NCBI GenBank assembly: GCA_963827505.1
Contig: CAWHBD010000001.1
Coordinates: forward strand, 2,310,663 to 2,374,662
Direction of reading: 5' to 3'
From: an uncultured Candidatus Rokubacteria bacterium
Lineage (GTDB): Bacteria; Methylomirabilota; Methylomirabilia; Rokubacteriales; CSP1-6
DNA length: 64,000 bases
Part shown: in pieces, positions 10,413-28,819 of the stretch
How the letters are laid out: the number at the start of each line of letters is the position of its first letter
How positions within the stretch are numbered: position 1 is the first letter of the stretch
The notes under the pieces: model-generated
What the model saw: only the letters and a program-made list of their open reading frames with translations
The model's database searches: none
What the model was told of the DNA's origin: nothing
Position numbers and translations under genes: made by a program

Positions 10413-11714
10413 TCAGCCGTCGGCCCGGCCGACGGCGTTACCGAAGCGCTTCTGCATGACGTCCGCGAAGGACAGACCGCGATCGGCAACGATGCTGCCG
10501 CCGCGCAGGCGGTAGCCGGCGCCGTCGCGCGCGGCCGCTGGCTCGATGCCGGCGCGCAGGTCGCGGGCGCCGCGCAGCAGCCGCCGCCGGAACTCGATGA
10601 TGGCGGCGTCGGTGGGGCCGAGGTGCTCGCGGGTGCGATCGGCGATCCAGCCCTGGCTGTCCTGGATCATCGCGTCCTGCTCGGACACGCCCTGGATGCC
10701 GGTGAAGGTGCGGCGCTTCTGGGCGTCGCGGTCGATGAGGTAGTCGTTGTCGCGGTTGCGGAGCGGGACGAAGCGCGCGTCGACCTCGGCGTGGACGGTG
10801 CGGCCGGCCCGGTAGGCCCGGCGCTCCTCCTCGGTGAGCGGCCGGTCGGGGTTCCACGTGTAGCAGAAGACCCACGCGGCCTCGTCGGTGATCGGCACCC
10901 ACGTCTGTCCGTGGATGTTCTCGCCGGGGAAGGCGTTGGGGGTCAGCGCGTGGTTGGGCAGCATGAACTGCGCGATGCGCCAGTAGCGGGCGTCGCCGTC
11001 GGCCGTGCGGGCGGCCCCGGCGACGAACCCGACGTCGTGGCCGACCACCTCGAACTCCGGGCGGGGGTCGTCCCGCATCCAGCGCGTCCGCTGGCGGTCG
11101 ACCGAGGAGCGGCTGACGGCGGCGTCGACCGCGTCGTCGGCCGACCACACCGGCATGTGCAGGAACGAGAAGTGGGCGGTGTCGAGCGCCCCCTCGCAGG
11201 CCTGGGCCCAGTTGCACTGCTGCAGCTTCTTCGACACGAACCGGTGGGCGGCCGGCAGCCGGGCGAACTCCAGCTCGGGCAGCGCCGGCGTGAGGGCGGA
11301 GGGGCCGAGGTAGGCCCAGACGAAATCGCCCCACTCGCGGGTGGGATAGGCGCCGGTCCGGACGCGCTCGCGAAAGCTGCTGGCGGGCGCCATGGTCGGC
11401 ATGTCCACGCAGCGCCCGTCGACGTCGAACTTCCAGCCGTGGTACGCGCAGCGGAGACCGCACGCCTCGTTGCGGCCGAAGAACAGGTTGGCGCCCCGGT
11501 GCGGACAGCGGGGATCGAGCAGGCCCACGCGCCCGTCGGTGTCGCGGAAGGCCACGAGGTCCTCGTCCAGGACCTTCACGCGGACGGGCGGGCCGTCGGG
11601 GTCGGGCAGCTCCTGGGCCAGCAGCACCGGCAGCCAGAACCGGCGGAAGAGCTCGCCCATCGCCGTGCCGGCCCCGGTGCGGGTGAGCAGCTCGTTGTCG
11701 GCCGCGCTCAGCAC
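10413..11714 (-). CDS. Rieske [2Fe-2S] non-haem-iron oxygenase, alpha-subunit type (VanA/KshA-like)
   Basis: Rieske motif CPHRGANL...CAYHGWKF and mononuclear iron motif DTAHFSFLH. Intact 433-aa ORF. Confidence 0.85.
   Translation of the reverse strand: MLSAADNELLTRTGAGTAMGELFRRFWLPVLLAQELPDPDGPPVRVKVLDEDLVAFRDTDGRVGLLDPRCPHRGANLFFGRNEACGLRCAYHGWKFDVDGRCVDMPTMAPASSFRERVRTGAYPTREWGDFVWAYLGPSALTPALPELEFARLPAAHRFVSKKLQQCNWAQACEGALDTAHFSFLHMPVWSADDAVDAAVSRSSVDRQRTRWMRDDPRPEFEVVGHDVGFVAGAARTADGDARYWRIAQFMLPNHALTPNAFPGENIHGQTWVPITDEAAWVFCYTWNPDRPLTEEERRAYRAGRTVHAEVDARFVPLRNRDNDYLIDRDAQKRRTFTGIQGVSEQDAMIQDSQGWIADRTREHLGPTDAAIIEFRRRLLRGARDLRAGIEPAAARDGAGYRLRGGSIVADRGLSFADVMQKRFGNAVGRADG
10416..10436. 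terminator. GC hairpin between convergent genes (possible bidirectional terminator)
   Basis: gccgtcggc-ccg-gccgacggc forms a 9-bp perfect stem. It lies 20 nt after the TAG of the plus-strand membrane gene and overlaps the stop of the Rieske gene. There is no clear U-tract. Confidence 0.3.
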
Positions 11715-11718
11715 CCCG

Positions 11719-12465
11719 CTACCAGAGGGCGTCCGGCATCGGCAGTCCCTTGAAGACGTCGGTCGGCAGCGGCGACGGCGCCGTCACTCCCAGTCGCTCG
11801 GCCAGCACGTAGAGCTGGCGGAGGTGCTGGCCGCAGTGCCACGCCGTGCGCTCGAGCAGATCGTGGGCGCCCTGCGGACCGTAGTAGATCTGCAGGACGC
11901 GGGTGAACTCGTCCTCGCCGGCGCCCTCGAACCAGCCGGTGATACGCCCGCGCACAAGCGCGCCCCAGCGGGCAACGTCGCCGCCGTCCCGCATGTCGAC
12001 CGGCGCCCGCTCCTCGAACCACGTGTCCGGCATGCCGCCCCGGTCCATGGTGTCGACGAACGAGAGGCCGACCCGGAAGATGTGGAAGGCCAGATCGCGG
12101 ATCGAGCGCTTGCGCTCGGGCGGGACGACGTCGAGCTGGCCGGCGTCGAGCCGGGCCACCAGCCCCTGCGCGGATTCGAGGATGCGGTCCATGCGCCGGG
12201 CGAGCTCCCGGGGCGGCAGCTGGGTGCTCTCGGTGTACGGCACCCCCAGCAGGGCCGCGTAGCCGGCCGGGTTCCAGCCGTGGACGGCCCGGTCGCCGAC
12301 GGAGACGGCGGGCACGCGGGGAATGCCGAAGCGTTTGAGGTCCTCGACGCCGGACGGATCGGCCTGGATGTCGACGGGATCGAACTCGATCCCCCAAGAC
12401 GTGAGCAGCTCCTTCGTCTTGGCGCAGGACGATCAGCCCGGGCGGTAGTACAGGCGCGGCTTCAT
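11719..12465 (-). CDS. Glutaredoxin-like (UxxC) / DinB-family fusion protein; in-frame TGA at 12433-12435 proposed to be read as selenocysteine
   Basis: SD GGAGGA plus the ATG at 12465 open MKPRLYYRPG-TGA-SSCAKTKELLTSWGIEFDPVDIQADPSGVEDLKRFGIPRVPAVSVGDRAVHGWNP. This runs in the same frame into the 198-aa DinB-like ORF 11719..12315 (150 nt = 50 codons upstream of its GTG). Confidence 0.6.
12394..12422 (-). promoter_or_regulatory. SECIS-like hairpin downstream of the in-frame UGA
   Basis: On the mRNA the 8-bp perfect stem CCAAGACG/CGUCUUGG carries a 13-nt loop AAGGAGCUGCUCA and starts 11 nt after the UGA. Confidence 0.4.
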
Positions 12466-12504
12466 GGTGGTCCTCCCCGTTGCAAGAGTACCCGGCGAGC
12501 GGGC

Positions 12505-13296
12505 TCAGCGCCCGCGGAACGTGGGCGCCGCCTTCTTCTCGGCGAAGGCGGTGACGCCGGCCCGGAAGTCCTCGGTGTGGCCGCAGGCGGCGATGCCCTG
12601 GGCCTCCAGCTCCATCTGGGTCTCCAGGCTCTCCCACGTCGACTGGTGGAGCAGGCGCTTGGCGATCCCGAACGACTTCGACGGCCCCTGGGCCAGCTCG
12701 CGGGCCAGCGCGTCGACCGCGGCCTTGAACTCGGCGTCGGGCACCGCCCGGGTGACCATCCCCCACTCGACGGCTTCGCGGGCGGTGAGCACGCGGTTGG
12801 TGAAGTACAGCTCCATTGCCCGCCGGAGGCCGACGAGCCGCGGCAGGAAGTACGACGACGAGCCGTCGGGGCTGGCCGCGATCCTGGAATACGCCATCGT
12901 GAACTTCGCCGATTCGGTGGCCACCACGAGGTCGCCGGACAGGGCCAGGCTGAAGCCGCCGCCGGCGGCCACGCCGTTCACCGCCATGATCACCGGCTTG
13001 TCGGTGCGGGCGAAGCGCGAGATGGCGCCGTGCAGGTAGGTCGTCAGCTCCTTGATATGGGCGCCGATGCGGGGGAGGTTCTCGACGAAGTCCTTGACGT
13101 CGCCGCCCGCGCAGAAGGCCCGGCCACTGCCGGTCACGACGACGCAGCGGACGTCGGGGTCCTCGTCGAGCTCGATGGCAGCGGTGAACAGCTCGCGGCC
13201 CAGCGGCAGGTTGAGGGCGTTGTAGGCGTCGGGGCGGTTCAGGGTGAGCGTGGCGACGTTCGCCGCCCGCTCGACGGTCACGTGCTGGTAGGCCAT
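12505..13296 (-). CDS. Enoyl-CoA hydratase/isomerase (crotonase) family protein
   Basis: MAYQHVTVERAANVATLTLNRPDAYNAL...VVVTGSGRAFCAGGDVK...AVNGVAAGGGFSLAL. SD GGAGGA precedes the ATG at 13296. Confidence 0.88.
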   Translation of the reverse strand: MAYQHVTVERAANVATLTLNRPDAYNALNLPLGRELFTAAIELDEDPDVRCVVVTGSGRAFCAGGDVKDFVENLPRIGAHIKELTTYLHGAISRFARTDKPVIMAVNGVAAGGGFSLALSGDLVVATESAKFTMAYSRIAASPDGSSSYFLPRLVGLRRAMELYFTNRVLTAREAVEWGMVTRAVPDAEFKAAVDALARELAQGPSKSFGIAKRLLHQSTWESLETQMELEAQGIAACGHTEDFRAGVTAFAEKKAAPTFRGR

Positions 13297-13325: not shown

Positions 13326-16300
13326 TCAGCGGGGCCCGCCGCGCGCGCGCGCGACGTCGGACACGGCGTCGATGATCTCCTGGATCTGCAGCGGCTTGAC
13401 GAGGACCAGGTCGACGCCGTGCGCGTGGCGCTCCTCGGCCGACAGCTCGACACCGAAGCCGGTGACGAGGAACACGGGCACCTGGGGGGCGACCTGCTTG
13501 ACGGCTCGGGCCACCTGCCAGCCGGAGACGCGCGGCATGGCGAGGTCGGTGACCACGAGGTCGAACGGCTGAGCCAAGAAGCGGGCGATGGCCTCGCCGC
13601 CGTCTCCGAACGTCTCCACGATGTGGCCGGCCGACTCCAGGATGTCGCCGATCACGGCCCGCACCGGCGGCTCGTCGTCGACGACCAGGCAGCGCAGCCC
13701 CCGCACCGGCGGCGGCGGCGCGGCCGGGGGTGGCGCCGGTGCCGCCGGCTGCACGTCGGCGCCGCGTGGCAGCGACAGCCGGAAGGTCGAGCCCTGGCCC
13801 AGCTCGCTCTCGACCGCGATCGAGCCGCCGTGGCGGGAGATGATGCCATAGGTCATCGACAGCCCCAGCCCGGTGCCCTGCGGTCCCTTGGTCGTGAAGA
13901 ACGGATCGAAGACCTTCTCGCGCACCTCCAGCGGCATCCCCACGCCGCTGTCGCTCACCACGATCTCGATCCGCTCGTCGACCAGCGCGGTCGCCAGCGT
14001 CAGGGTCCCGCCCTGCGGCATGGCGTCGAGCGCGTTCAGGATGAGGTTGGTCATCGCCTCCCGCAGCTCGGAGCCGTCCCCGAGCACCGCCGGCACCTCG
14101 ACCAGGTGCGTGCACACATCGACCAGGATGCCGCGGCTGGTCGGCTCCTCCTTCCAGCGCGACTGGGTGATCTCGAGAGCGTCGCGGACGACCAGATTGA
14201 TGTCGAGCGGGACCAGTGGCTGGTCGCGGCGGATGCGCGTGAAGTCTTGCAGCCGCTTCACGGTCTGGGCCCCGTCGAGGGCGGAGCGCTCGATCACCTG
14301 CAGCCACTGGCGCAGCTGCGGCTCCTGCACGCGGCGCAGCAGGAGCTGGGCGCGGCCCAGCACCGAGGCCAGCAGGTTGTTGAAGTCGTGGGCCACGCCG
14401 GAAGCCATCTCGCCCAGCGCGCGCAGCTTCTCGGTGCGGACGAGCTGGTCCTGGGCGGCCGACAGCTCGCCGTAGGCGCGCGTGCGGTCCTCGTACAGGC
14501 GCACGCTGGACAGGGCCAGCGCGGCCAGGTGGCCGGTGTTGAGCAGCAGCCGCTCCTCGGCCTCGGTGAAGGGCCGCTCGGCGCTGCGCAGGGCCAGCAT
14601 GCCCAGCACCCGGTCGCGGGCGCTCAGCGGCACCCCGAGCCAGAAGCGCATCCGCAGCGAGGCGGCCACCGGCTTCACGCCCCGGCGCGCGCACTCGCCG
14701 GCGTAGTCGTCGGTCCGCAGGGGCTGACCCGATTCCAGCACCGTCGTCATGAGCCCCACTCCGCCGGCGGCGTAGCGCCGGGGCTCGCTGTCGTCGCGCT
14801 CGCCGTCGATCAGGCGCAGCGCGACCTCCATCTCGTCGCCCTCGTCCACCCGCAGGACCACCGCCATGTTGCGGATGTCGACGACGCGGCCGAGCTGGAC
14901 ACGGAGCGCTTCCAGCAGCGCGGCGCGCTCCAGCTCGCCGGTGACCGCCCGCGACAGCTCGTGCAGCACGGACAGCTCCTCGACCCGCTGCCGGTTCTCC
15001 TCGAACAGCCGCGCGTTCTCGATGGCCACGCCGGCCTGGCTGGCGATGGCCTCGACCAGGGCCAGCTCGCCCGGGGTGAAGTCGCGCCGCCGCTCCCACC
15101 ACACCACCGCGAAGCCGCCGAGCATCCGGTCCTTGGTCACGACCGGCACGAACAGGTGGCTCCGGTGGGGGGCCCGCTCCCGGATGACCGGCGGCATCCG
15201 CGGATCGTTGGCGGCGTCGGCCACGAACACCGGGCGCCGGGTCCGCGCGGCCTCGGCGTAGATCGCGTGATCCACGAGCGACAGCCGCACGTCGCGCAGC
15301 GCCGCCAGCTGGACCGGCGGCACCCGGTACCCGGCCAGCGGCGTCAACCACTGGCCGGTCTCGTCGACCATCCAGAGGCCGACGGTGTCGGCCCCGAAGG
15401 TGGTGGCGACTTGGCGGAGGAAGAGCCGTACGAGGCTCTGGACGTCGAGCGTGGAGGAAACGGCCCGGCTGACCGAGAGCAGCGTCTCCGTCTCCGACAG
15501 CTTGCTCTGCGTCTGGCGGGCCAGCTCGACGTTCTCCATGGCCAGCCCCACCTGCGAGGCGATGCCGTCCAGCAGCCGCAGCTCGGCGGGAGCGAAGGTG
15601 CGGCCGGTGTGCCACCACACCAGGAACAGCGCGCCCACCGCCTGGCCGTGGGCCAGGGTCGGCGCGAACAGCATCGAGAACGGCGGCAGCCCGCGGATCC
15701 ACTCGGCGTCGTACCCGGGATCGCGGTGAACGTCGGCGCTGCCCACCGGCTGGGCGCCCCGGAAGGCCGCGGTCAGGGCCGGGGCCCGGTCGAGCACGAG
15801 CGGGTTGCGCAGGAAGAAGTCGAGCAGGTCCCGGGGGACGTGGTAGCCGGCCGCCGGCACCAGCGCCTCCCGCCGCTCGTCCACGAGGTACACGCCGACC
15901 ATGTCGGCGCCGAAGGCGTGGCCGACCTCGGCCGCCACCCCGCGCAGCAGGACGTCGGTTGGGCCCGGCTGCGACAGGGTCTGGCCCACGGCGAGCAGCG
16001 TGCGGGTCTCGCGCAGCCGCTCCTGGGCCTCGTTGAACAGCCGTGAGTTCTCGAGGGCCAGCGCGATCTGGCCGGCGATGGCCAGGGCGAGATCGCGCTG
16101 CCAGTCCTGGAAGCGCCCCGGCCGGTCACAGTAGTCGACCGTCAGTACGCCGATGATCCGATCCTGACGCAGCATGGGCACGATGAGGCAGGCGCGCAGC
16201 CCGAAGGCCTCGACCCAGGCGGCCGGGATCAGCGTCGAGGTCGCGCAGTCCTCGATGAGCAGCGGCTGCCGGGTCTCGATGACCTGCGCATTGGCGGGGA

Positions 16301-19300
16301 TCGCGGCCGGCGGCTCCGCCGGCAGCGACTGGAACTGCTCCCACATGCGCGGCGTCTTGCGGCCGTCGGCGAACTGCGACATCAGCGGCACCACGCGGTC
16401 GCCGTCCCACAGCTCGAGCGTGCAGCGGTCGACGCGGCAGACCTGGGCGACCTTCAGCGTCACCCGCTTGAGCAGCCGGCGCGAGTCGAGCGTCGCCGAC
16501 AGGATCTCGGCCACCTCGAGCAGCGCGCGCGTCTCGGTCAGCCGCCGGCTCGTCTCCGAGTAGAGGTTGGCGTTCTCCAGCGCGATGGCGGCCTGGGCGG
16601 CCAGCGAGCCCATCAGGGTGGAGGTCTCCGGGGTGATTGGTAGCGCCGAGGCGCGGTGGACGGCGAAGGCGCCGAGCACGCGGTCGCCGATCGCGATCGG
16701 GTAGGCGGTCATCCAGTTCAGCCCGTGCTGGCGCATCGGGTCGCCGTCGAGGAACCGGGGGTCGCTGACGGCCTCCGTCCACAGGATGGGCTCCCGGTGC
16801 TGCGCGACCCAGCCGACGGCCCCCTCGCCCAGCGCCAGCTCGTCGCGCAGCAGCACCGCCACCTCCTGGCCGCCGAAGGTCAGCGCCCGGCGCAGGCGCT
16901 GGGTGGCGACGTCGAAGGCCCAGATGCTGACGTAGGGCGCGTCGAAGAACTGGGCGATGGCCCGGGCCAGGTTCTGCAGCACCTCCTCGACGTTCAGCGA
17001 GGAGGACACCAGCCGGTTGACCTCCTCCAGGGCCCGCAGCCGCTCGGCGTAGTGGCGCGTCTCCTCGTACAGCCGCGCGTTGCGGACGGCCGCGGCGGCC
17101 TGGGCCGAGAACGACTGCAGCAGATCCTCGTCGTCGGGGCCGAACCGGAAGGGATGCTCGCGGAGGAGAACGAGCACGCCGAGCAGCCGCTCCCGGTCGA
17201 GGATGGGCGTGCAGAACAGGCTGCGCAGGCCGCGCTCGCGCGCCCAGTCCTGGGCGACGAAGCGGCCGTCGGCGGCGAGGTCGTCGATGGTGAGCGGCCG
17301 TCGCTCCTCGGCGACCCAGCCCACCGCTCCCTCGCCGAAGCGGAGGCTCGCGTTCTGGGTGGCGCCACCCAGCCCCGAGTCGGACGAGGCCTGCAGGCGC
17401 AGGGTGCGCGTGCCCTCGTCGGCGAGCCAGAACCCCACGAACGGCGCGCTCATGATCTGCACGGCGGCCTGGGCGATCGAGGTCAACACGTCGGCGGTGT
17501 CGAGCGAGGAGGTGACGAGGTGGTTGAGCCGGGCCAGTGTCCGCAGCCGCGTGGCCCGCGTCTCTGCCGCGTGGTAGAGCCGCGAGTTCTCCAGCGCGAT
17601 GCCGGCCTGGGCGGCGAAGCTCTCCAGCAGGCCGAGGTCGTCGGGCAGGAACGGCTCGGCGCCGTCGTTCCGGCTCATCGCGATGGCGGCGTGCACGCGG
17701 CCGGCGATGACGACCGGCTGCACGATCGCGTGGCGCACGCCGAGAGCGACGAAGTCCGGCCGGGCGAAGGGCGAGCGGGGATAGTCGTTGGCGATCATCC
17801 CGCGCTTCTCGCTCACGGCGGCGCCGATGAGCCCGGTCCCCGGCACCGCCACCACGCTGGTCGGGCCCTCGCCGGTCCAGGCTCGCCGCACGAGGCGCCC
17901 GTCGGCGTCCACGAGGTAGAGCGCGGCGTCGGCGTCGAACAGCCGGGCCGAGCGCTCGACGATGAGGTCGAGGAGCCGCTCGGTGTCCAGCTCGGCGGCG
18001 AACTCGCGCTCGATCTCGGCCAGGGCGGCGGCTTGCCGACGCCGGGCCCGCTCCAGCGAGAAGAGCCGCGCGTTCTCCAGCGCCAGCGCCGCCTGGTCGG
18101 CGAAAGCCTGCAGCAGCTGCGCTTCCTCCTCGGTGAAGCGCCGGCCGGAAGCGTCGGACACGCCGAGGCCGCCGATCACCATGGCCTTCACGCGCAGCGG
18201 CACCGCCAGCGCGGCCCGCTCGCCGGAGCCCCGCAGCACCTCGCGCAGGTCCTCGGTCAGGGTCACGTCAGGATCGGTGAGGACGTCGGACGACCACAAC
18301 GGGCGCCCCTCGGCGACGGCCCGGCCGAGGATGCCGAGCCCGGGCCGCAGCACGTGGCCGGGGTCGAAGCCACCGGTCGACCCCCCCAGCCCCAGCGCCA
18401 CCAGCGAGCCGTCGGGCTGGCTCAGCATCAGGACGGAGGACCGCGCGCCGAACAGCGGCAGCACGCTCTCGACGGTGCGCGACACCACGTCGGTCACGTC
18501 CAGGCTCTCGGTCAGCGTCTGGGCCAGGCGGGCCAGCTGCTCGGCCTCCTGCCGGCGGCGCGCGGTCTCGGCGTAGAGCTGCGCGTTCTCCAGCGCCAGC
18601 GCCGCCTGGTCGGCGAAGGCCTGCAGCAGGTGGGCCTCGGCCTCGGTGAACGGGCGGCCGGCGCGATCGGAGATCGACAGCGTCCCGATCGTCTGGCCCT
18701 TGGCCCGCAGCGGCACGGTCAGCTGGGCGCCCTCGCCAGCGCCCCGCATGCGCTCGCGCACCTCGTCGGGAAGGGCGAGCGTCGGGTCGTTCGGGAGGTC
18801 GAGGCTCGTGACCGCCATGCCCCGCTCGATGGCCAGGGCCGAGGTCGAGGCGCCGGCCGGCAGCACGTGACCGGGGGTGAGAACGGTCGCCACCCGGCCC
18901 GCCATCGCCAGCGCCTCCAGCGCGCCGTCGGGACGCAGCAGGCGCAGGACCGAGGACTGCGCGGTGAACAGCGTGAGAACGCTCTCGGTGATGCAGGCAC
19001 CGACCGCGTTGACGTCCAGGCTCTCGGTGAGCCGGCGGACCAGCCCCGTCAGCTCCTCGGCCTCGCGCCGCCGGCGCGTCGTCTCGGCGTAGAGGCCGGC
19101 GTTCTCGAGGGCCAGCGCCGCCTGGTCGGCGAAGGCCTCGGCCAGCCGCGTGTCCTCGGCGGCGAACACCCGGCCCGTCCGGTCGCCCACAGCGAGGGCG
19201 CCCACGACCCGGTCACGCACGATCAGCGGCACCCCCATGACCGCGCGGTCCGTGCTCGAGGCCAGCGTCTCGCGCACGTGCTCGTCATAGCGGATGAGCG

Positions 19301-21122
19301 GGTCGAGCAGGGAGTCCGGGCTGGCGTGGGTGCGCCGCTCGGCGGCGGCAAAGCCGGCCAGGCCGGTCCCCGCCGGCAACTCGCGGGCCCAATGGTAGGT
19401 GCTGCCCTGAGAGACGCTGAGCGCGACCATGCGGCCGCCCTCCACAATCCGGTAGAGGGCCGACGACCGAGCGCCGAGCAGCGTGCAAATGCTGTCGGCG
19501 ACGCGCTGGCCGACGAGGTCGGGGTCGAGCGTCTCGGACAGCACGCGGCCGAGGTCGGCCAGCGCGCGCATGCGCGTGGCCTGCTGGCGCGCCTCCCGGT
19601 ACAGCCGCGCGTGCTCGAGGGCGACCGCGGCCTGGCCGGCGAACGCCTCGGCCAGGTCCTGGTCACGGGGCGTGAACGGCCGCCGGGCCCGGAAGGTGAG
19701 CACGCCGATCATCCGATCACCCAGCTTGAGCGGGACGCCGAGGAACGTCGTGTAGCCCAGCCGGAGGTCGGCGGCCAGGTGCTCGGCGACGGCGCCGGCC
19801 TGGGCGTCGAGGTCGAGGACGAGCGAGTGTCCGGCCTTCATCACCCGGCCGCTGAGGCTCTCGTCCATGCGCAGACGCGGGCGGAGCATGGTCTCGACGG
19901 CGGTGCCGGCCAGCCCGGCCACGACGAGATCGTCGCCCTCCAGCAGGCGGAAGCCCGCATTGTCGACGGCGAGCAGCCGGGCCGCCTCCTCGGCGATGGA
20001 GGTCAGCAGTGGCTCGGTCGGCGCCATCGCGCCGATCTTGGTGTTGATCTCCAGCAGCGCGTTCAGGTAGGCGCGGCGCGTCTGCTCGTCGAAGAACAGC
20101 CGCGCATTCTCGATGGCGATGGCCGCCTGGTCGGCCAGCGACTGCAGCAGCGCCACCTCCTCGTCCGAGTACGGGCGCCGGTCGTGGGTGCCGATGGCGA
20201 GCGCGCCGATCACCCGGGTGCCGACCATCAGCGGCACCCCCGCCGACGACGCGATGCCCCGGGCGAGCAGCCGCGCGGCGTTGCGCACACGCGGATCGCC
20301 CTGTAGATCTGGGATCGCCACCGGGGCGCGCTGGGCGACGATGAGACCGACGAGTCCCTCGCCTACCGGCAGCGTGCGCACTTCCTCGGGCGTGGTGACC
20401 AGCCCCGCCGAGGCGCCCAGCGTCAGCTGCCGGGCATCCTCGTCGAGCAGCCACAAGCGCGCGACGGTGCAGCCGAACAGCTCGACGGCAGCCTCGACGA
20501 CGCGCTCGAGGACCTGATCGCCCGAGAGCGTCGCCGTCAGCCCCTGGGCCAGGCGGGCCAGCGTCTCCAGCCGCCGGCTCTTCTCCTGCGTTTCGGCGAC
20601 CAGCGCGGCCCGGCCGACGGCGAGCCCCACCTGCAGGGCCACGCCCTGCAGCAGGGTCACCAGGTCGGCGTCAAACTCGCGCCGCTCCGGCGTGACCAGG
20701 GCCAGCACGCCCCAGATCCGGCCCTCGGCGAAGATCGGCAGCGCGAGCTGGGTGTGAAACTGTCCGCCGCTGATCGCCCCTCGCAGCACCGGGTCCCGTA
20801 TGAAGGGCGAGGTCGTGAGGTCGGTGACGACGAAGCGACCGCTCCGGACCGCCTCGCCGGTGTGCGAGGCGTCCACCCGACGCTCGCGCAAGCGGTCGGC
20901 CTGCTCCGCACTGAGGCCCCGGCTGGCGATCAGGATCAGCCGCTCGCCGGCCGGATCCAGGCGGTACACCATGCCGACGCGCATGCCGGCCACCGCCAGC
21001 ACCACGTCGAGGGTCTGCTCGGCGGTGGTGGCGAGGTCACCCTTCGAACCCATGGTGACGGCGGCGGCGTGGAGCGCCTCCAGCTCGCGGCTGCGCCGTT
21101 CGATCTCGGGCCCGGACGGCAC
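13326..21122 (-). CDS. Giant hybrid sensor histidine kinase: 13 tandem GAF domains - HisKA - HATPase_c - receiver
   Basis: One uninterrupted frame. Thirteen GAF-ending linkers of the type F(A/S)xQAAxALENAxLYxE...L occur about every 170 aa. These are followed by the H-box GVAHDFNNLL, then NLILNALDAM...DSGVGM...GTGLGLS, then the receiver LVVDDEPPVR...VVTDLAMP...LVKP. The start is taken as GTG 21122, just after the pyk stop. The ORF-track extension to 22061 overlaps pyk out of frame. Confidence 0.85.
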   Translation of the reverse strand: MPSGPEIERRSRELEALHAAAVTMGSKGDLATTAEQTLDVVLAVAGMRVGMVYRLDPAGERLILIASRGLSAEQADRLRERRVDASHTGEAVRSGRFVVTDLTTSPFIRDPVLRGAISGGQFHTQLALPIFAEGRIWGVLALVTPERREFDADLVTLLQGVALQVGLAVGRAALVAETQEKSRRLETLARLAQGLTATLSGDQVLERVVEAAVELFGCTVARLWLLDEDARQLTLGASAGLVTTPEEVRTLPVGEGLVGLIVAQRAPVAIPDLQGDPRVRNAARLLARGIASSAGVPLMVGTRVIGALAIGTHDRRPYSDEEVALLQSLADQAAIAIENARLFFDEQTRRAYLNALLEINTKIGAMAPTEPLLTSIAEEAARLLAVDNAGFRLLEGDDLVVAGLAGTAVETMLRPRLRMDESLSGRVMKAGHSLVLDLDAQAGAVAEHLAADLRLGYTTFLGVPLKLGDRMIGVLTFRARRPFTPRDQDLAEAFAGQAAVALEHARLYREARQQATRMRALADLGRVLSETLDPDLVGQRVADSICTLLGARSSALYRIVEGGRMVALSVSQGSTYHWARELPAGTGLAGFAAAERRTHASPDSLLDPLIRYDEHVRETLASSTDRAVMGVPLIVRDRVVGALAVGDRTGRVFAAEDTRLAEAFADQAALALENAGLYAETTRRRREAEELTGLVRRLTESLDVNAVGACITESVLTLFTAQSSVLRLLRPDGALEALAMAGRVATVLTPGHVLPAGASTSALAIERGMAVTSLDLPNDPTLALPDEVRERMRGAGEGAQLTVPLRAKGQTIGTLSISDRAGRPFTEAEAHLLQAFADQAALALENAQLYAETARRRQEAEQLARLAQTLTESLDVTDVVSRTVESVLPLFGARSSVLMLSQPDGSLVALGLGGSTGGFDPGHVLRPGLGILGRAVAEGRPLWSSDVLTDPDVTLTEDLREVLRGSGERAALAVPLRVKAMVIGGLGVSDASGRRFTEEEAQLLQAFADQAALALENARLFSLERARRRQAAALAEIEREFAAELDTERLLDLIVERSARLFDADAALYLVDADGRLVRRAWTGEGPTSVVAVPGTGLIGAAVSEKRGMIANDYPRSPFARPDFVALGVRHAIVQPVVIAGRVHAAIAMSRNDGAEPFLPDDLGLLESFAAQAGIALENSRLYHAAETRATRLRTLARLNHLVTSSLDTADVLTSIAQAAVQIMSAPFVGFWLADEGTRTLRLQASSDSGLGGATQNASLRFGEGAVGWVAEERRPLTIDDLAADGRFVAQDWARERGLRSLFCTPILDRERLLGVLVLLREHPFRFGPDDEDLLQSFSAQAAAAVRNARLYEETRHYAERLRALEEVNRLVSSSLNVEEVLQNLARAIAQFFDAPYVSIWAFDVATQRLRRALTFGGQEVAVLLRDELALGEGAVGWVAQHREPILWTEAVSDPRFLDGDPMRQHGLNWMTAYPIAIGDRVLGAFAVHRASALPITPETSTLMGSLAAQAAIALENANLYSETSRRLTETRALLEVAEILSATLDSRRLLKRVTLKVAQVCRVDRCTLELWDGDRVVPLMSQFADGRKTPRMWEQFQSLPAEPPAAIPANAQVIETRQPLLIEDCATSTLIPAAWVEAFGLRACLIVPMLRQDRIIGVLTVDYCDRPGRFQDWQRDLALAIAGQIALALENSRLFNEAQERLRETRTLLAVGQTLSQPGPTDVLLRGVAAEVGHAFGADMVGVYLVDERREALVPAAGYHVPRDLLDFFLRNPLVLDRAPALTAAFRGAQPVGSADVHRDPGYDAEWIRGLPPFSMLFAPTLAHGQAVGALFLVWWHTGRTFAPAELRLLDGIASQVGLAMENVELARQTQSKLSETETLLSVSRAVSSTLDVQSLVRLFLRQVATTFGADTVGLWMVDETGQWLTPLAGYRVPPVQLAALRDVRLSLVDHAIYAEAARTRRPVFVADAANDPRMPPVIRERAPHRSHLFVPVVTKDRMLGGFAVVWWERRRDFTPGELALVEAIASQAGVAIENARLFEENRQRVEELSVLHELSRAVTGELERAALLEALRVQLGRVVDIRNMAVVLRVDEGDEMEVALRLIDGERDDSEPRRYAAGGVGLMTTVLESGQPLRTDDYAGECARRGVKPVAASLRMRFWLGVPLSARDRVLGMLALRSAERPFTEAEERLLLNTGHLAALALSSVRLYEDRTRAYGELSAAQDQLVRTEKLRALGEMASGVAHDFNNLLASVLGRAQLLLRRVQEPQLRQWLQVIERSALDGAQTVKRLQDFTRIRRDQPLVPLDINLVVRDALEITQSRWKEEPTSRGILVDVCTHLVEVPAVLGDGSELREAMTNLILNALDAMPQGGTLTLATALVDERIEIVVSDSGVGMPLEVREKVFDPFFTTKGPQGTGLGLSMTYGIISRHGGSIAVESELGQGSTFRLSLPRGADVQPAAPAPPPAAPPPPVRGLRCLVVDDEPPVRAVIGDILESAGHIVETFGDGGEAIARFLAQPFDLVVTDLAMPRVSGWQVARAVKQVAPQVPVFLVTGFGVELSAEERHAHGVDLVLVKPLQIQEIIDAVSDVARARGGPR
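18068..18629. repeat. 49-nt direct repeat (48/49 identical) at 18068-18116 and 18581-18629, one GAF module (513 bp) apart
   Basis: gcgcgttctccagcgccagcgccgcctggtcggcgaa[a/g]gcctgcagcag occurs twice. A more diverged third copy lies near 19091. Confidence 0.85.
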
Positions 21123-25654: not shown

Positions 25655-27103
25655 TCACAACGAACTCGCCTGCTTAAGCTCCTTCCCCGGCCCTCCATCG
25701 TCGAGGACCCGGGACGCGGTCAGCCCGAGCGGCAGCGCGACCAGGGCCGGGTACCGCGCCAGCGTTTCCAGCCAGATCCCACCACCGGGCACCAGCACCG
25801 GCAGCGCCGCCAGCGCCACGAACACGGCGGCGCCGACGCTGGAGCCGGCCAGGGCGGCCGCCCGACCGTCGGCCAGCCGCGCCGGTGTCCACGCCGCCGC
25901 CGCCAGCCCGAGGCCGAGCAGGAGCAGCCGCCAGGGGTCCGGCGACCAGGCGGCGAGCGCGGTGGCCCCGGCGACCACGGCCGCCCACACCGCGGGGCGG
26001 GACCCAGCGGTGACGGCCAGCCGCCCGCGCAGGGCGATGGCCGCCGTCACCAGGAGCACACCCACCGCGCCGAGCACGAGCGCGGCCAGCACAGCGCCGG
26101 AATGCACACCGAGGGCGCGCGGCGGCAGGCGGAGCAGGGGCGCCAGCGTCGAGCCGCCGAGGGCGAGGTCGGGGGCTGCCGCGCCGGCGTACACGCCCCA
26201 GCCGACCGCGGCGGTCACCGTGGCCATCAGCACGAGCGGCCCCGCGGCCGCCGGGCGGCCCCGGCCATCCAGCGGCGGGACGAGCGCCAACGCGCCACCG
26301 ACGAGCGTGACGAGGGCGCCGAGCGCGGCGGGCAGCATCCATGGACCGCGGGTCGGCGCGTCGGCCCAAGCCACGCCGGTGGCCGGCGCGCTCGGCACGC
26401 GGCGGCCGGCCTCGAAGCGTAGCCGCGCGCCCGCCTCGACCGCGAGCTCGTCGCCGGGTCGCAGCGTGAGCGTCTCGCCGGCGCCCAGCCGCCACTCGCG
26501 CACCGTTGGCGGCGTCGCGTCCCGCTCGACGACGCGATAGAGGCCGGCCGAGAGCACGGTCACGCGCTGGCCCTCGGTGAAGCTCAGCCGGGCCGGGCGC
26601 GGGAACCGCTCGCCCGTCTGCACCCACCCGCTCGCGTCGGGAAACGTGAGCGCCGCCGGCCGGCCGCCGTGGCTCCACGCGGTCCACGGCGCGGCCCACG
26701 TGCGCGAGGCCACCGCGGCGAGCGGCAGGACGAGCCCGAGGGCCGCGAGCACGAGCACGGCGGGCCCGATGCGCCGTGCGGCCGGTAGCAGCGGCACCAG
26801 CACCGCCAGAGCGGCGGCCGCCCCTACGCCCACCCACGGGCCCGCGCCGAGCAACCCGGCGGCGTCGCCGGCGACCGCGAAGTCGGCGGCCAGCCCGAGC
26901 GTGATAGCGAGCACGGCGGCGGTGGCGGTGACGGGGTTCGCGCCGAGCGGGCGGCGGGTGGCGGCCAGCAGCGCGACGAGCGGCGCGACGAGCGCGCCGA
27001 GCGCCAGCCACGGCGCCTCGGCGTCGCCGGCGGCCACGCGCAGGACCACGGCCGTCAGCAGCACGGGCTGCAGCCAGACGGCGGCGGCGGCCAGCGCGGT
27101 CAT
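25655..27103 (-). CDS. Uncharacterised polytopic membrane protein with a central soluble (beta-rich) domain
   Basis: The ATG at 27103 forms an ATGA overlap with the upstream small ORF. Ala/Leu-rich TM segments flank WSHGGRPAALTFPDASGWVQTGERFPRPARLSFTEGQRVTVLSAGLYRVVERD...LTLRPGDELAVEAGARLRFEAG. Confidence 0.6.
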   Translation of the reverse strand: MTALAAAAVWLQPVLLTAVVLRVAAGDAEAPWLALGALVAPLVALLAATRRPLGANPVTATAAVLAITLGLAADFAVAGDAAGLLGAGPWVGVGAAAALAVLVPLLPAARRIGPAVLVLAALGLVLPLAAVASRTWAAPWTAWSHGGRPAALTFPDASGWVQTGERFPRPARLSFTEGQRVTVLSAGLYRVVERDATPPTVREWRLGAGETLTLRPGDELAVEAGARLRFEAGRRVPSAPATGVAWADAPTRGPWMLPAALGALVTLVGGALALVPPLDGRGRPAAAGPLVLMATVTAAVGWGVYAGAAAPDLALGGSTLAPLLRLPPRALGVHSGAVLAALVLGAVGVLLVTAAIALRGRLAVTAGSRPAVWAAVVAGATALAAWSPDPWRLLLLGLGLAAAAWTPARLADGRAAALAGSSVGAAVFVALAALPVLVPGGGIWLETLARYPALVALPLGLTASRVLDDGGPGKELKQASSL

Positions 27104-28082: not shown

Positions 28083-28819
28083 AGCTCACCGCGGGAGGGC
28101 TGGTCGCGCTCAGCCTGGGGCTTGCCGCCGGCGGCATCGGCGCCTACGTGCTGCTCTTTCGGGTGGCCGCCGTGCGCAACCACCCCGAGGGCTACGTCGT
28201 CGCGATGGGGCTGGCCACGGCCCTGGCGGCGGTGGCGCTGGCCCGCGCGCGGCGCTGGTTCACGTGGCTGGGGCTGGGGGTGACGGTCATCCTCCTGGTG
28301 GGCAGCGTCTTCTTCAACTTCGTCGCCGCCCGCGTGCCCACGACGCCGACGGCCCTGAAGGTGGGCGAGCCGGCCCCGGACTTCACGTTGTCCGACGCCG
28401 CGGGCCGGTCCGTCACCCTCAGCGACTTCCGCGGCAAGAAACCGGTCGTCCTCGTCTTCTACCGCGGCGCCTGGTGACCGTTCTGCGTCGCGGAGCTCCA
28501 AGGTCTTGGAGCGGCACTGTCGGAGGCGGAGAAGGCCGGGGTCGAGATCATCGCACTGTCGCCCGATCCCAACGAGCACAGCCAGCGGCTCGCCGAGGGG
28601 CTGCGCCTGGCCTATCGGTTCGTCTCCGATCGCGACCTGACGGTGACCCGCCGCTACGGGCTGGTGCACCCGCGCGGCGGCTCGGAGGGGCAGGACGTGC
28701 CGCGCCCGGCCACGGTAGTGCTCGACCGCAACGGCGTCGTGCGCTGGTTCTCGGTCACTGCCAACTTCCAGGTGCGGCCCGATGCCGCCGACGTCCTGCG
28801 CGCCGTGCGCGCGCTCTAG
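28079..28819 (+). CDS. Membrane-anchored (3 TM) peroxiredoxin-like protein with W-U-P-F-C motif; in-frame TGA at 28475-28477 proposed to be read as selenocysteine
   Basis: GTG 28079 (GTGA overlap with the PIG-L stop) opens ...[49 protein letters not shown]...IIALSPD...ATVVLDRNGVVRWF... ending at TAG 28817-28819. The 114 codons after the TGA stay in frame. Confidence 0.7.
28495..28512 (+). promoter_or_regulatory. SECIS-like hairpin: 7-bp stem GCUCCAA/UUGGAGC with GGUC tetraloop
   Basis: The stem starts 18 nt and the loop 25 nt after the UGA. The loop sequence is identical to the E. coli fdhF SECIS apical loop. Confidence 0.55.

What the first reader, a model, noticed from the sequence alone, without database searches (positions are those of the whole stretch)
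11719..12465. Second candidate selenoprotein: glutaredoxin-like U-S-S-C domain fused to a DinB domain
Seen in the sequence:
- A strong SD (GGAGGA) and the ATG at 12465 open MKPRLYYRPG-TGA-SSCAKTKELLTSWGIEFDPVDIQADPSGVEDLKRFGIPRVPAVSVGDRAVHGWNP.
- This runs, with no other stop and in the same frame (exactly 50 codons), into the DinB-like ORF 11719..12315.
- The N-terminal 65 residues have the glutaredoxin/NrdH layout: beta1, CxxC, helix, then ...VP.V..G....G. The TGA (12433-12435) takes the place of the first Cys.
- An 8-bp perfect stem CCAAGACG/CGUCUUGG (12394-12422) starts 11 nt after the UGA, which is the classical spacing of the minimal fdhF SECIS. Its 13-nt loop (AAGGAGCUGCUCA) is not fdhF-like.

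Inference: this is a Sec-containing Grx-DinB fusion. Two independent TGA-at-CxxC cases in one 64-kb window are unlikely to both be chance nonsense mutations. They also differ in kind from the indel-type damage elsewhere in the window.
Basis: partly seen in the sequence, partly recalled or inferred. Interest (0 to 1): 0.7.

Follow-up and report, generated by a model that had tools for sequence, protein, structure and literature searches.

The report
Unannotated selenoprotein: glutaredoxin-DinB fusion
This gene almost certainly encodes a real selenocysteine-containing enzyme, a glutaredoxin-like redox domain fused to a metal-binding DinB domain, which is conserved across the soil phylum Methylomirabilota (Rokubacteria and NC10), cut short at its in-frame TGA in every public annotation I saw, and absent from the 2026 catalogue of prokaryotic selenoprotein families.

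Summary
The minus-strand ORF 12465..11719 reads MKPRLYYRPG-UGA-SSC… through one in-frame TGA (12433-12435). It encodes a 248-residue protein with a Glutaredoxin domain and a DinB_2 domain.

All 97 scorable orthologous loci, from independent assemblies, carry TGA at this codon. The peptide is conserved on both sides, and the upstream codons vary synonymously. More distant full-length homologues with the same architecture have Cys there (…PGCSSC…).

A hairpin follows the UGA: an invariant GACG/CGUC core, a 5-nt apical loop AG(C/U)UN, and 22 nt between the UGA and the loop. It meets the published bacterial SECIS model. It is held in place by strongly atypical codon choice, and it is missing from six Cys-form genes.

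A second TGA-at-CxxC gene in the window (a Prx-like protein) has a GGUC-loop hairpin at the same spacing. The phylum is reported in the literature to be rich in selenoproteins.

Two things were not shown: Sec machinery in this particular genome, and the enzyme's substrate.

This is a new fusion variant of the known UxxC thioredoxin-fold selenoproteins. It is not a new mechanism. All public annotations seen truncate it.

The parts
12471..12476 (-). Shine-Dalgarno GGAGGA, 5 nt upstream of the start codon
   Evidence: Read directly from the sequence.
11719..12465 (-). Full coding sequence of the Grx(U)-DinB selenoprotein: 248 residues, one in-frame UGA, stop TAG at 11719-11721
   Evidence: Translation. 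Pfam finds both domains. Gene callers report only the 198-aa downstream part and leave a 190-nt unexplained gap. All 120 best homologues are N-terminally truncated calls of 174-234 aa.
12433..12435 (-). UGA codon 11, the proposed selenocysteine, at the first position of the U-S-S-C redox motif
   Evidence: TGA in 97 of 97 orthologous loci and 94 of 94 unique CDS. It aligns with an invariant Cys in full-length homologues, and the Cys forms use TGC or TGT.
12424..12426 (-). TGC, Cys14, the resolving cysteine of the UxxC motif
   Evidence: Cys in 93 of 94 unique CDS. The one exception is L090, which has Gly.
12394..12422 (-). SECIS-like hairpin inside the coding sequence. 5' arm 12411-12422 (CCAAGACGAAGG), apical loop 12406-12410 (AGCUG), 3' arm 12394-12405 (CUCACGUCUUGG).
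   Evidence: Window fold: -17.8 kcal/mol over 48 nt and -26 kcal/mol over 61 nt, z = -2.0. In 54 distinct orthologue sequences, 88% of cells pair, against 38-52% when partners are slid; compensatory changes occur at 3 pairs. RNAalifold keeps the GACG/CGUC core and the loop-closing pairs. Codon choice is atypical at hairpin positions. Mean MFE of this window is -16.8 kcal/mol in TGA forms and -6.7 in Cys forms. The element meets all four bSECIS model criteria quoted.
12286..12453 (-). Glutaredoxin/NrdH-like thioredoxin-fold domain (residues 5-60 by Pfam)
   Evidence: PF00462, E = 5.9e-11. A family profile hits Grx and NrdH structures at E down to 6e-17. The model of homologue P0134 superposes on BC3987 and cGrx1 at TM 0.88-0.89. 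The cis-Pro position P52 is invariant.
11812..12183 (-). DinB_2 (DinB/YfiT-like) four-helix-bundle domain (residues 95-218). The invariant His triad is H128 (12082-12084), H210 (11836-11838) and H214 (11824-11826).
   Evidence: PF12867, E = 1.6e-9. H128, H210 and H214 are invariant in the Sec and Cys forms. Foldseek matches DR0053 (6iz2), YfiT (1rxq), the mycothiol-dependent maleylpyruvate isomerase (2nsf) and Mtb mycothiol S-transferase with Zn (8f5v).
12505..13296 (-). Upstream enoyl-CoA hydratase (ECH_1) gene. This is conserved synteny within subfamily 1 only, and is probably not a functional part of the system.
   Evidence: Pfam on the called gene. It is adjacent in 44 of 85 loci, all in subfamily 1.

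Best explanation
Window 12465..11719 (minus strand) is a single gene for a 248-residue selenoprotein. Translation starts at the ATG at 12465. The UGA at codon 11 is decoded as selenocysteine by SelB and Sec-tRNA(Sec), directed by a bacterial SECIS hairpin that lies inside the coding sequence (12394-12422). The apical loop of that hairpin starts 22 nt after the UGA.

The product has an N-terminal glutaredoxin/NrdH-like thioredoxin-fold domain. Its active site is U-S-S-C, with Sec as the exposed nucleophile and Cys14 as the resolving residue. This domain is fused to a C-terminal DinB/YfiT-type four-helix bundle with an invariant three-histidine metal site.

What is shown: the recoded architecture, its conservation, the Sec/Cys pairing, and the RNA element.

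What is inferred, by analogy with DinB-superfamily thiol S-transferases and isomerases (bacillithiol and mycothiol transferases, the mycothiol-dependent maleylpyruvate isomerase): the DinB domain uses its metal to bind and activate a thiol or an electrophilic substrate. The fused selenol/thiol pair then acts as the built-in redox partner. It would attack the resulting conjugate or disulfide and form an intramolecular selenenylsulfide, which a thioredoxin-reductase-type system would later reduce. The substrate is unknown.
For: 1. TGA occupies the same codon in 17 of 17 species-representative Methylomirabilota/Rokubacteria genomes. Overall it is there in 97 of 97 scorable loci, 94 of them unique CDS, spanning two subfamilies that are only about 48% identical.
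2. The 10 codons upstream of the TGA are under protein-level selection. Arg7 is invariant but is encoded by CGC, CGG, CGT and CGA; Pro8 and Gly9 behave the same way.
3. Residues 12-50 include the resolving Cys and helix 1. They are highly conserved, yet there is no consistent in-frame start after the TGA. Gene callers start at varied positions, giving products of 174-234 aa.
4. Full-length homologues at 31-38% identity carry ...PGCSSC..., with Cys exactly at the U position, and share the Grx-DinB architecture.
5. The hairpin meets the bSECIS model criteria given in PMC13188914. The apical loop is 5 nt, within 3-9. The stem lies within 4-16 bp. G is the second loop nucleotide. The spacing is 22 nt, within 16-37. 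The MFE is well below -7.5 kcal/mol.
6. Codon choice shows RNA-level constraint. In the 3' arm, Ser is TCT or TCA in 81 of 93 sequences, against 8.1% A/T-ending Ser codons elsewhere in the same genes. Thr is ACG in 92 of 94, Ala is GCC in 79 of 83, and Leu is CTT in 35 of 93 against 2.7% elsewhere. Amino-acid entropy is 0.26 over the hairpin and 1.30 in the rest of the protein.
7. Six Cys-form genes lack the hairpin. Their mean MFE is -6.7 kcal/mol, against -16.8 for 69 distinct TGA forms.
8. TGA is the usual stop codon in this window, ending 30 of 40 GC3-supported ORFs. The recoding must therefore be site-specific.
9. A second TGA in the same window lies in a Prx-like W-U-P-F-C context. It is followed by a GCUCCAA-GGUC-UUGGAGC hairpin whose loop starts 24 nt after the UGA.
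10. Methylomirabilota are reported to use Sec heavily. One MAG is predicted to hold 63 selenoprotein genes, and Sec-type hydrogenases occur in the phylum.
11. The fold is confirmed on homologue P0134: pLDDT 94.8, pTM 0.91, with Grx-like and DinB/YfiT structural matches.
Against: - No selA, selB, selD or tRNA-Sec was found in the window or in the 438 kb of related DNA I fetched. These are small fragments of large genomes, so this neither supports nor refutes. It does mean the machinery in this genome is not demonstrated.
- Covariation in the hairpin is modest. Three pairs show double-sided changes, and many cells at pairs 17/39, 22/34 and 23/33 are mismatches. The window's own copy has A.A and A.C in the upper stem. 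It also cannot be fully separated from the very high protein conservation of this segment.
- The window's apical loop is AGCUG. It lacks the G followed by G or U that most bSECIS loops have. Subfamily 2 has AGUUG.
- There is no Rfam match.
- The enzymatic mechanism is inferred only from domain homology. No conserved operon partner points to a substrate.
- I could not obtain model coordinates, so I could not measure the distance between the UxxC motif and the His triad.
Confidence: 0.88

Rival explanations
1. UGA is recoded through the SECIS and a SelB-like factor, but as cysteine. This would use a tRNA-Sec-like tRNA(ReC) (selC*), so the mature protein would carry an ordinary CSSC glutaredoxin motif.
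For: [quoted passage not shown] 2018, as cited). Nothing in the gene sequence alone distinguishes Sec from Cys insertion.
Against: In the hydrogenase survey, tRNA(ReC) was reported in Armatimonadota, Desulfobacterota and JAPLJL01. It was rare (about 2.3%) in Sec-type genomes without UXXU motifs, and no Methylomirabilota case is mentioned. Keeping a costly recoding apparatus only to insert Cys, across about 100 lineages in which a TGC mutation would do the same job, is hard to explain. The phylum is reported to be selenoprotein-rich.
Confidence: 0.05
2. The TGA is a true stop. The real product is a stand-alone DinB protein of about 198-237 aa started at an internal codon. The upstream ATG-to-TGA stretch is a short leader ORF or non-coding sequence.
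For: This is what every gene caller and public annotation reports.
Against: The predicted starts are inconsistent between orthologues, giving products of 174-234 aa. In the window there is no ATG, GTG or TTG between the TGA and codon 51. Yet residues 12-50, which are half of a Grx fold and include the resolving Cys, are the most conserved part of the protein. The 10 upstream codons complete beta-strand 1 of the Grx fold and match the Cys homologues (F/Y-W/Y-x-P-G-C). A Grx domain without strand 1 and its first active-site residue would not be functional.
Confidence: 0.03
3. The gene is a pseudogene, or the TGA is a sequencing or assembly error. A nonsense mutation or a nanopore error would have hit an ordinary Cys-Grx-DinB gene.
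For: The window appears to come from a long-read MAG, and L005 is identical over this region.
Against: The TGA is shared by 97 of 97 loci from independent studies and assemblers, including Illumina assemblies. Both flanks are under purifying selection. The TGA always comes with a dedicated hairpin that the Cys forms lack.
Confidence: 0.01
4. SECIS-independent read-through occurs: a near-cognate tRNA (for example Trp or Cys) suppresses the UGA, and the hairpin only slows the ribosome or release-factor access.
For: Stimulatory downstream structures for stop-codon read-through exist in other systems (general knowledge).
Against: The UGA sits exactly at the catalytic Cys position of a CxxC motif, which is the hallmark of Sec/Cys exchange. 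The hairpin's spacing and loop fit the SelB-type bSECIS model. A second site in the same window has a GGUC-loop hairpin at the same spacing.
Confidence: 0.02

Closest known systems
Selenocysteine-containing glutaredoxin (PF00462, UxxC; Clostridium/Alkaliphilus oremlandii type, Kim et al. 2011, listed as experimentally verified in PMC13188914)
   Same: It has the same Pfam domain. Sec is at the same first position of the UxxC active site, at the N-terminus of helix 1. The bSECIS lies in the coding sequence immediately downstream.
   Different: The known Sec-Grx is a stand-alone protein of about 80-90 aa from anaerobic Firmicutes. Here the domain is closer to NrdH/YruB-type redoxins, has a U-S-S-C motif, and is covalently fused to a DinB_2 domain. 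It occurs in high-GC soil Methylomirabilota.
DinB/YfiT-superfamily thiol-dependent enzymes: bacillithiol S-transferase YfiT/BstA (1rxq), Mtb mycothiol S-transferase (8f5v), mycothiol-dependent maleylpyruvate isomerase (2nsf), and DR0053 (6iz2)
   Same: They share the four-helix bundle with a three-His metal site (H128, H210 and H214 are invariant here). Foldseek gives probability 1.0 with TM 0.62-0.77 normalised to the target.
   Different: Sequence identity is only 13-20%. None of the solved members carries a fused redoxin domain or selenocysteine. The thiol cofactor and the substrate of the present family are unknown.
Cys-form Grx-DinB_2 fusion proteins (e.g. P0134, P0139, P0147, P0165; annotated 'glutaredoxin' or 'hypothetical protein')
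   Same: They have the same two-domain architecture, the same ...PGCSSC.KTKEFL... active-site neighbourhood, the same His triad, and the same C-terminal GLPxP motif.
   Different: They have Cys (TGC or TGT) instead of UGA, and no hairpin downstream. Identity is 31-38%. They lack the SSWG(I/V)EF and HGWNP signatures of the Sec clade. As far as I could find, they are uncharacterised themselves.
Canonical GST / Grx2-type architecture (thioredoxin-fold N-domain plus all-helical C-domain)
   Same: The overall logic matches: a thioredoxin-fold thiol-handling domain followed by a helical substrate domain. Foldseek lists many GSTs and Francisella Grx2 as weak full-length matches.
   Different: The superposition is poor (rmsd 13-17 A, TM about 0.3). 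The helical domain here is a DinB bundle with a metal site, not a GST C-domain. This is an analogy, not homology.
Other recently catalogued fusion selenoproteins (HUGP/GUXX-star fusion; arsenite methyltransferase/AhpD-domain selenoprotein; rhodanese/DsbD-like TsoB)
   Same: A small redox selenoprotein module is fused to an enzymatic domain. The Grx domain gives weak sub-threshold hits to the Uxx-star models.
   Different: All NCBIfam scores are far below their cut-offs, for example NF041212 at 26.5 bits against 66. No catalogued family contains a DinB domain.

Membership tests
Bacterial selenoprotein (SelB/SECIS-dependent UGA decoding) | In-frame UGA conserved among orthologues, with coding conservation on both sides | tested here: met
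   TGA in 97 of 97 loci. Upstream codons vary synonymously while the amino acids stay fixed.
Bacterial selenoprotein (SelB/SECIS-dependent UGA decoding) | Homologues with Cys aligned to the UGA position | tested here: met
   At least 18 full-length representatives have Cys at the position aligned with U, mostly as ...PGCSSC.... TGC or TGT was confirmed in the DNA of 6 of them.
Bacterial selenoprotein (SelB/SECIS-dependent UGA decoding) | bSECIS hairpin downstream of the UGA: 3-9 nt apical loop, 4-16 bp stem, G in the first two loop positions, 16-37 nt from UGA to loop, MFE <= -7.5 kcal/mol (criteria quoted) | tested here: met
   The loop is AG(C/U)UN (5 nt), G is the second loop nucleotide, the spacing is 22 nt, and the MFE is -17.8 kcal/mol for the window. 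The hairpin is specific to TGA forms. The window's loop has GC rather than the commoner GG or GU.
Bacterial selenoprotein (SelB/SECIS-dependent UGA decoding) | selA, selB, selC (tRNA-Sec) and selD present in the same genome | not testable with these tools
There is only phylum-level support from the literature.
Bacterial selenoprotein (SelB/SECIS-dependent UGA decoding) | Selenium demonstrated in the protein (75Se labelling or mass spectrometry) | not testable with these tools
   Requires an experiment.
Glutaredoxin family (Pfam PF00462) | Profile match above the gathering threshold, a CxxC-type motif before helix 1, and the conserved cis-Pro | tested here: met
   42.9 bits against a cut-off of 22.9. 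The motif is U-S-S-C. P52 is invariant. The homologue model matches Grx-like folds at TM 0.88.
NrdH / YruB glutaredoxin-like equivalogs (NCBIfam TIGR02194, TIGR02196) | Score above the curated cut-off | tested here: not met
   37.6 bits against 85.75, and 42.9 bits against 88.55. These are the closest redoxin types, but this protein is not a member.
DinB_2 / DinB-YfiT superfamily (Pfam PF12867) | Profile match above threshold, a four-helix bundle, and a three-His metal site | tested here: met
   38.8 bits against 24.8. H128, H210 and H214 are invariant. Foldseek matches 6iz2, 1rxq, 2nsf and 8f5v (the model is of homologue P0134, not of the window protein itself).
Thiol S-transferase activity of DinB enzymes (BstA / MST type) | Metal-dependent conjugation of a low-molecular-weight thiol to electrophiles | not testable with these tools
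   Structural similarity only. Requires biochemistry.
Any selenoprotein family in the 2026 catalogue (119 families, PMC13188914) or in NCBIfam release 20 | Listed domain architecture, or a model hit above its cut-off | tested here: not met
   The review never mentions 'DinB', and its table has no Grx-DinB row. No NCBIfam model reaches its cut-off. The deep-Sep paper does not mention it.

The most novel reading that the evidence does not exclude
The family is a previously undescribed selenoenzyme class. In it, a selenol/thiol (U-x-x-C) redoxin module is hard-wired to a DinB-type metal centre. That would make a self-contained, selenium-dependent, 'GST-like' detoxifying reductase or transferase specific to Methylomirabilota. 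It would be the first DinB-superfamily enzyme to use selenium. The confident inter-domain packing (pTM 0.91) would then reflect direct hand-over of substrate between the metal site and the Sec.
Probability: 0.3. Interest if true: 0.65.

Novelty: new variant of a known kind. Interest (0 to 1): 0.5.

Why it matters
1. Annotation. Every public entry for this widespread soil-bacterial protein that I saw is truncated and named 'DinB family', 'glutaredoxin' or 'hypothetical' (611 homologues; names). The catalytic residue and half of the redox domain are missing from these entries. A dedicated model would correct hundreds of records.
2. Selenoproteome. It adds a domain architecture (Grx-DinB) that is absent from the current 119-family catalogue. 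It also helps explain why Methylomirabilota are emerging as the most selenoprotein-rich bacteria.
3. Enzymology. DinB-superfamily proteins are numerous and mostly of unknown function. An obligatory fusion to a Sec/Cys redoxin is a strong hint that at least this branch catalyses thiol-dependent redox chemistry. The natural Sec and Cys pairs offer a ready comparison for testing it.
4. Method. The codon-bias and Cys-form-control approach gives clean evidence for a SECIS embedded in coding sequence, where classical covariation is weak.

Tried and rejected
- Rfam at gathering threshold over the whole window, and at permissive threshold over 12330-12480, found no SECIS or other relevant family.
- ARAGORN gave a single 84-nt 'tRNA-Gln(CUG)' at 25800-25883. 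It lies in GC-rich sequence that reads as a membrane-protein ORF, so I judged it a false positive and not a tRNA-Sec or allo-tRNA.
There were no hits, which is uninformative.
I therefore used the post-TGA sequence for the search and modelled Cys homologue P0134.
- Model coordinates are not exposed, so the distance from the UxxC motif to the His triad could not be measured.
- Operon-based function inference did not hold up. The Rieske/LigXa_C oxygenase 4 nt downstream looked like an operon partner, but it is adjacent in only 4 of 79 loci. The ECH upstream is conserved only within subfamily 1. Neighbours elsewhere are unrelated.
- Deng et al. 2026 (Cell Rep), Haft & Tolstoy 2025, and the supplement of PMC13582414 are not held, so I could not check whether this gene is among the 63 predicted Methylomirabilota selenoproteins.
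- P0314 (287 aa), in a cluster of truncated forms, was checked as a possible close Cys orthologue. It is only a C-terminal frameshift extension.
- My first scan for in-frame TGAs in the window was too strict and missed the known cases. The relaxed scan found only the two protein-like sites.
Full report
**1. The observation**

On the minus strand, a GGAGGA Shine-Dalgarno (12471-12476) precedes the ATG at 12463-12465. The frame then reads MKPRLYYRPG, TGA (12433-12435), and SSCAKTKELLTSWGIEFDP…, and runs on without another stop to the TAG at 11719-11721. That is 248 sense positions including the TGA. The ORF that mechanical callers report starts at the GTG at 12315, exactly 50 codons downstream. 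With U replaced by C, Pfam finds Glutaredoxin at residues 5-60 (42.9 bits, cut-off 22.9) and DinB_2 at residues 95-218 (38.8 bits, cut-off 24.8). The 8-bp stem CCAAGACG/CGTCTTGG lies at 12394-12422 and starts at the 11th nt after the UGA.

**2. Is the TGA real and conserved?**

A search of 5.8 billion proteins returned 611 homologues. The 120 best are all 174-234 aa, and none reaches upstream of the TGA. The longest begin just after it, for example MKTKELLSSWGIEFDP…. That is the usual signature of gene callers restarting after a recoded stop.

I fetched DNA for 17 species-representative genomes, all Candidatus Rokubacteria or Methylomirabilota MAGs, and for 80 metagenome loci. Of these, 97 of 97 scorable loci have TGA at the same codon. 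No other stop codon and no sense codon appears there. The loci fall into two subfamilies that are only about 48% identical overall: …YYRPG-U-SSCAKTKELL(T/S)SWGIEFDP… and …VYYRQG-U-SSCAKTKELLSSWGV.FEGFDVE…. A still more divergent truncated cluster includes an NC10 bacterium entry.

In 94 unique coding sequences, the ten codons before the TGA keep their amino acids while varying synonymously. Arg7 is encoded by CGC 42, CGG 34, CGT 12 and CGA 5, and Pro8 and Gly9 behave the same way. They are therefore translated. TGA is also the normal stop in this window, ending 30 of 40 GC3-supported ORFs, so there is no genome-wide reassignment. A sequencing error or a pseudogene is excluded.

**3. Sec/Cys pairing**

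I ran an exhaustive HMMER search of 1.84 billion cluster representatives with the post-TGA sequence. It found 679 relatives. Full-length members of 250-276 aa, at 31-38% identity, have the same two-domain architecture. They carry …(F/Y)W(Q/R)PGCSSC.(K/R).KEFL…, with Cys exactly where the window has UGA. I fetched DNA for six of them, and that codon is TGC or TGT. The alignment also shows an invariant His128/His210/His214 triad, invariant Arg206, Arg216 and Gln217, and a conserved C-terminal GLPxP motif.

**4. The RNA element**

- **Shape.** In the window, the 48 nt from the UGA fold to -17.8 kcal/mol, and 61 nt fold to -26 kcal/mol with z = -2.0. Alignment columns 14-25 pair with columns 31-42 around a 5-nt apical loop AG(C/U)UN.
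- **Pairing.** 88% of cells form standard pairs, against 38-52% when the partners are slid.
- **Covariation.** Double-sided changes occur at three pairs: 22/34 (A-U 35, C-G 5), 23/33 (A-U 17, G-C 9) and 17/39 (one G-C). There are also many mismatches at these same pairs. The window's own copy has A.A and A.C there.
- **Consensus fold.** RNAalifold keeps the invariant GACG/CGUC core and the two loop-closing pairs. Classical covariation is therefore modest.

Two other tests are clearer.

- **Codon choice.** In genes with a median GC3 of 0.91, the Ser codon in the 3′ arm is TCT or TCA in 81 of 93 sequences, against 8.1% A/T-ending Ser codons elsewhere in the same genes. The neighbouring Ser is TCG in 66 of 66. 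Thr is ACG in 92 of 94 (about 49% elsewhere). Ala is GCC in 79 of 83 (about 48% elsewhere). Leu is CTT in 35 of 93 (2.7% elsewhere). The sequences are related, so the Fisher p-values are only indicative, but the effect is very large.
- **Cys-form control.** The equivalent 35-nt window has a mean MFE of -16.8 kcal/mol in 69 distinct TGA forms. In the six Cys forms, which have comparable G+C, it is -6.7 kcal/mol.

The element satisfies all four constraints of the consensus bSECIS model as quoted in the 2026 review. Those are a 3-9 nt loop, a 4-16 bp stem, G in the first two loop positions, 16-37 nt from UGA to loop (here 22), and an MFE of -7.5 kcal/mol or lower. Rfam has no matching family.

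**5. Support from the same genome and phylum**

The other TGA case in the window, at 28475, lies in a membrane-anchored Prx/AhpC-like protein (…FYRGAW-U-PFC…). Its best NCBIfam neighbours are thiol peroxidase, ResA and the SelL-related redox protein, all below their cut-offs. It is followed by a 7-bp stem GCUCCAA/UUGGAGC with a GGUC tetraloop that starts 24 nt after the UGA. From my own knowledge, GGUC is also the apical loop sequence of the E. coli fdhF SECIS. Two sites in the window therefore share SelB-compatible geometry. A relaxed scan of the window found no third protein-like in-frame TGA.

I could not examine the rest of the genome. No sel genes or tRNA-Sec occur in the 438 kb I held. 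The literature states that a Methylomirabilota MAG was predicted to encode 63 selenoproteins, the largest bacterial selenoproteome so far. It also reports Sec-type group 4 hydrogenases in this phylum, with selABCD detected in about 90% of Sec-type genomes overall. The tRNA(ReC) system, which recodes UGA as Cys, was reported there in other phyla.

**6. What the protein is**

The N-domain is closest to small NrdH/YruB/Grx-type redoxins. The family profile matches PDB 7c10 at E = 6e-17 and NrdH structures at E around 1e-12. It reaches no NCBIfam cut-off. An AlphaFold2 model of Cys homologue P0134, built with a 55-sequence family alignment, is very confident (pLDDT 94.8, pTM 0.91). The high pTM implies a defined packing of the two domains.

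Foldseek matches the C-domain to DinB/YfiT four-helix bundles. These are DR0053 (6iz2), B. subtilis YfiT (1rxq), the mycothiol-dependent maleylpyruvate isomerase (2nsf) and the M. tuberculosis mycothiol S-transferase with Zn (8f5v). It matches the N-domain to BC3987 and cGrx1 at TM 0.88-0.89. No solved structure combines the two domains.

Genomic context gives no functional partner. The Rieske/LigXa_C oxygenase 4 nt downstream is adjacent in only 4 of 79 loci. The enoyl-CoA hydratase upstream is adjacent in 44 of 85 loci, all in subfamily 1, which looks like lineage synteny. Neighbours elsewhere differ.

**7. Mechanism**

- **Shown:** a single ORF with a conserved, site-specific UGA at the nucleophilic position of a thioredoxin-fold UxxC motif; an in-frame SECIS-type hairpin; and a fused DinB domain with an intact His-triad metal site.
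- **Inferred, with high confidence:** SelB and Sec-tRNA(Sec) insert selenocysteine at codon 11.
- **Inferred, with low to moderate confidence:** the metal site binds or activates a thiol or an electrophile, as in the bacillithiol and mycothiol transferases. The tethered selenol/thiol pair performs the redox step and forms a Se-S bond with Cys14, which a thioredoxin-reductase-like system then recycles, as for NrdH. One orthologue (L090) has U-S-S-G, and one relative (P0130) has lost the motif entirely. The redoxin chemistry may therefore be monothiol-capable or dispensable in some lineages.

**8. Comparison with known families, and novelty**

Sec-containing glutaredoxin (PF00462, UxxC) is an experimentally verified selenoprotein family. 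UxxC thioredoxin-fold selenoproteins are the commonest kind. The recoding mechanism here is ordinary. The architecture is what appears to be undescribed. The 2026 catalogue of 119 prokaryotic selenoprotein families and subfamilies has no DinB-containing entry, and 'DinB' does not occur in its text. Full-text searches for selenoprotein together with DinB found nothing relevant. The deep-Sep paper does not mention it. NCBIfam release 20 has no model that reaches its cut-off. Public names are 'hypothetical protein', 'DinB family protein' or 'glutaredoxin' on truncated sequences. The gene may be among the 63 bulk predictions of Deng et al. 2026, which I could not read. I therefore rate it a new variant of a known kind, with moderate interest.

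**9. Verdict**

My confidence that this is a UGA-recoded, SECIS-bearing Grx-DinB gene is about 0.95. My confidence that the inserted residue is selenocysteine is about 0.88. The enzymatic role remains an inference.

Noticed in passing
It is a membrane-anchored Prx/AhpC-TSA-like protein reading ...FYRGAW-U-PFC.... Its TGA is followed by a 7-bp stem GCUCCAA/UUGGAGC with a GGUC tetraloop that starts 24 nt after the UGA, which is a textbook bSECIS geometry. Its best NCBIfam neighbours (thiol peroxidase, ResA, SelL-related redox protein) are all below their cut-offs.
   Followed up: partly
window 25800-25883 (-): ARAGORN calls an 84-nt 'tRNA-Gln (CUG)'. The sequence is GC-rich and reads in frame as a hydrophobic membrane-protein segment (…LLGLGLAAAAWTPARLADGRAALAGSSVGAAVFVALAALPVLVPGG…). 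It is probably a false positive, not a tRNA-Sec or an unusual long tRNA.
   Followed up: partly
L090:1531-1578 (metagenome contig WNFB01008312.1): One orthologue has U-S-S-G instead of U-S-S-C, so the resolving Cys is replaced by Gly. It keeps the TGA and the hairpin, with one stem mismatch. This may be a monothiol-type (selenol-only) variant.
   Followed up: no
P0130 (267 aa representative): This relative is 44% identical to the window protein, so it is closer than the Cys forms. It has lost the redox motif altogether (…RPRLFIRPDSPTGERVRALLASLG…) while keeping the DinB His residues. The redoxin chemistry may therefore be dispensable in some lineages.
   Followed up: no
window 13326-21122 (-), next to the enoyl-CoA hydratase gene at 12505-13296: This is a giant sensor histidine kinase of about 2,600 residues or more, with many tandem GAF domains. 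It lies upstream of the ECH and Grx(U)-DinB genes. In several subfamily-1 orthologous loci, a kinase C-terminus also precedes the ECH gene.
   Followed up: no
window 10413-11714 (-): A Rieske/LigXa_C-type oxygenase gene starts 4 nt after the selenoprotein's stop codon, which looks like an operon. The adjacency is found only in the window's own species (4 of 79 loci).
   Followed up: yes
L018 (ENA ERZ25039547 contig_31308) 49-261 and 499-1182; also 14186-14761: In a near-identical assembly of this region, pyruvate kinase is called as two fragments and an aminotransferase as a 191-aa fragment. It differs in kind from the conserved TGA sites.
   Followed up: no
Alignment A3, columns 17/39 (window 12419 / 12397): In subfamily 2 the hairpin has a conserved A.A mismatch, produced by a Ser TCA codon. 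It sits between a 3-bp base (CCA/UGG) and a perfect 8-bp upper stem GACGAAAG/CUUUCGUC. The A/T-ending codon is kept even though it does not pair, so the internal mismatch or bulge may itself be a recognition feature.
   Followed up: no
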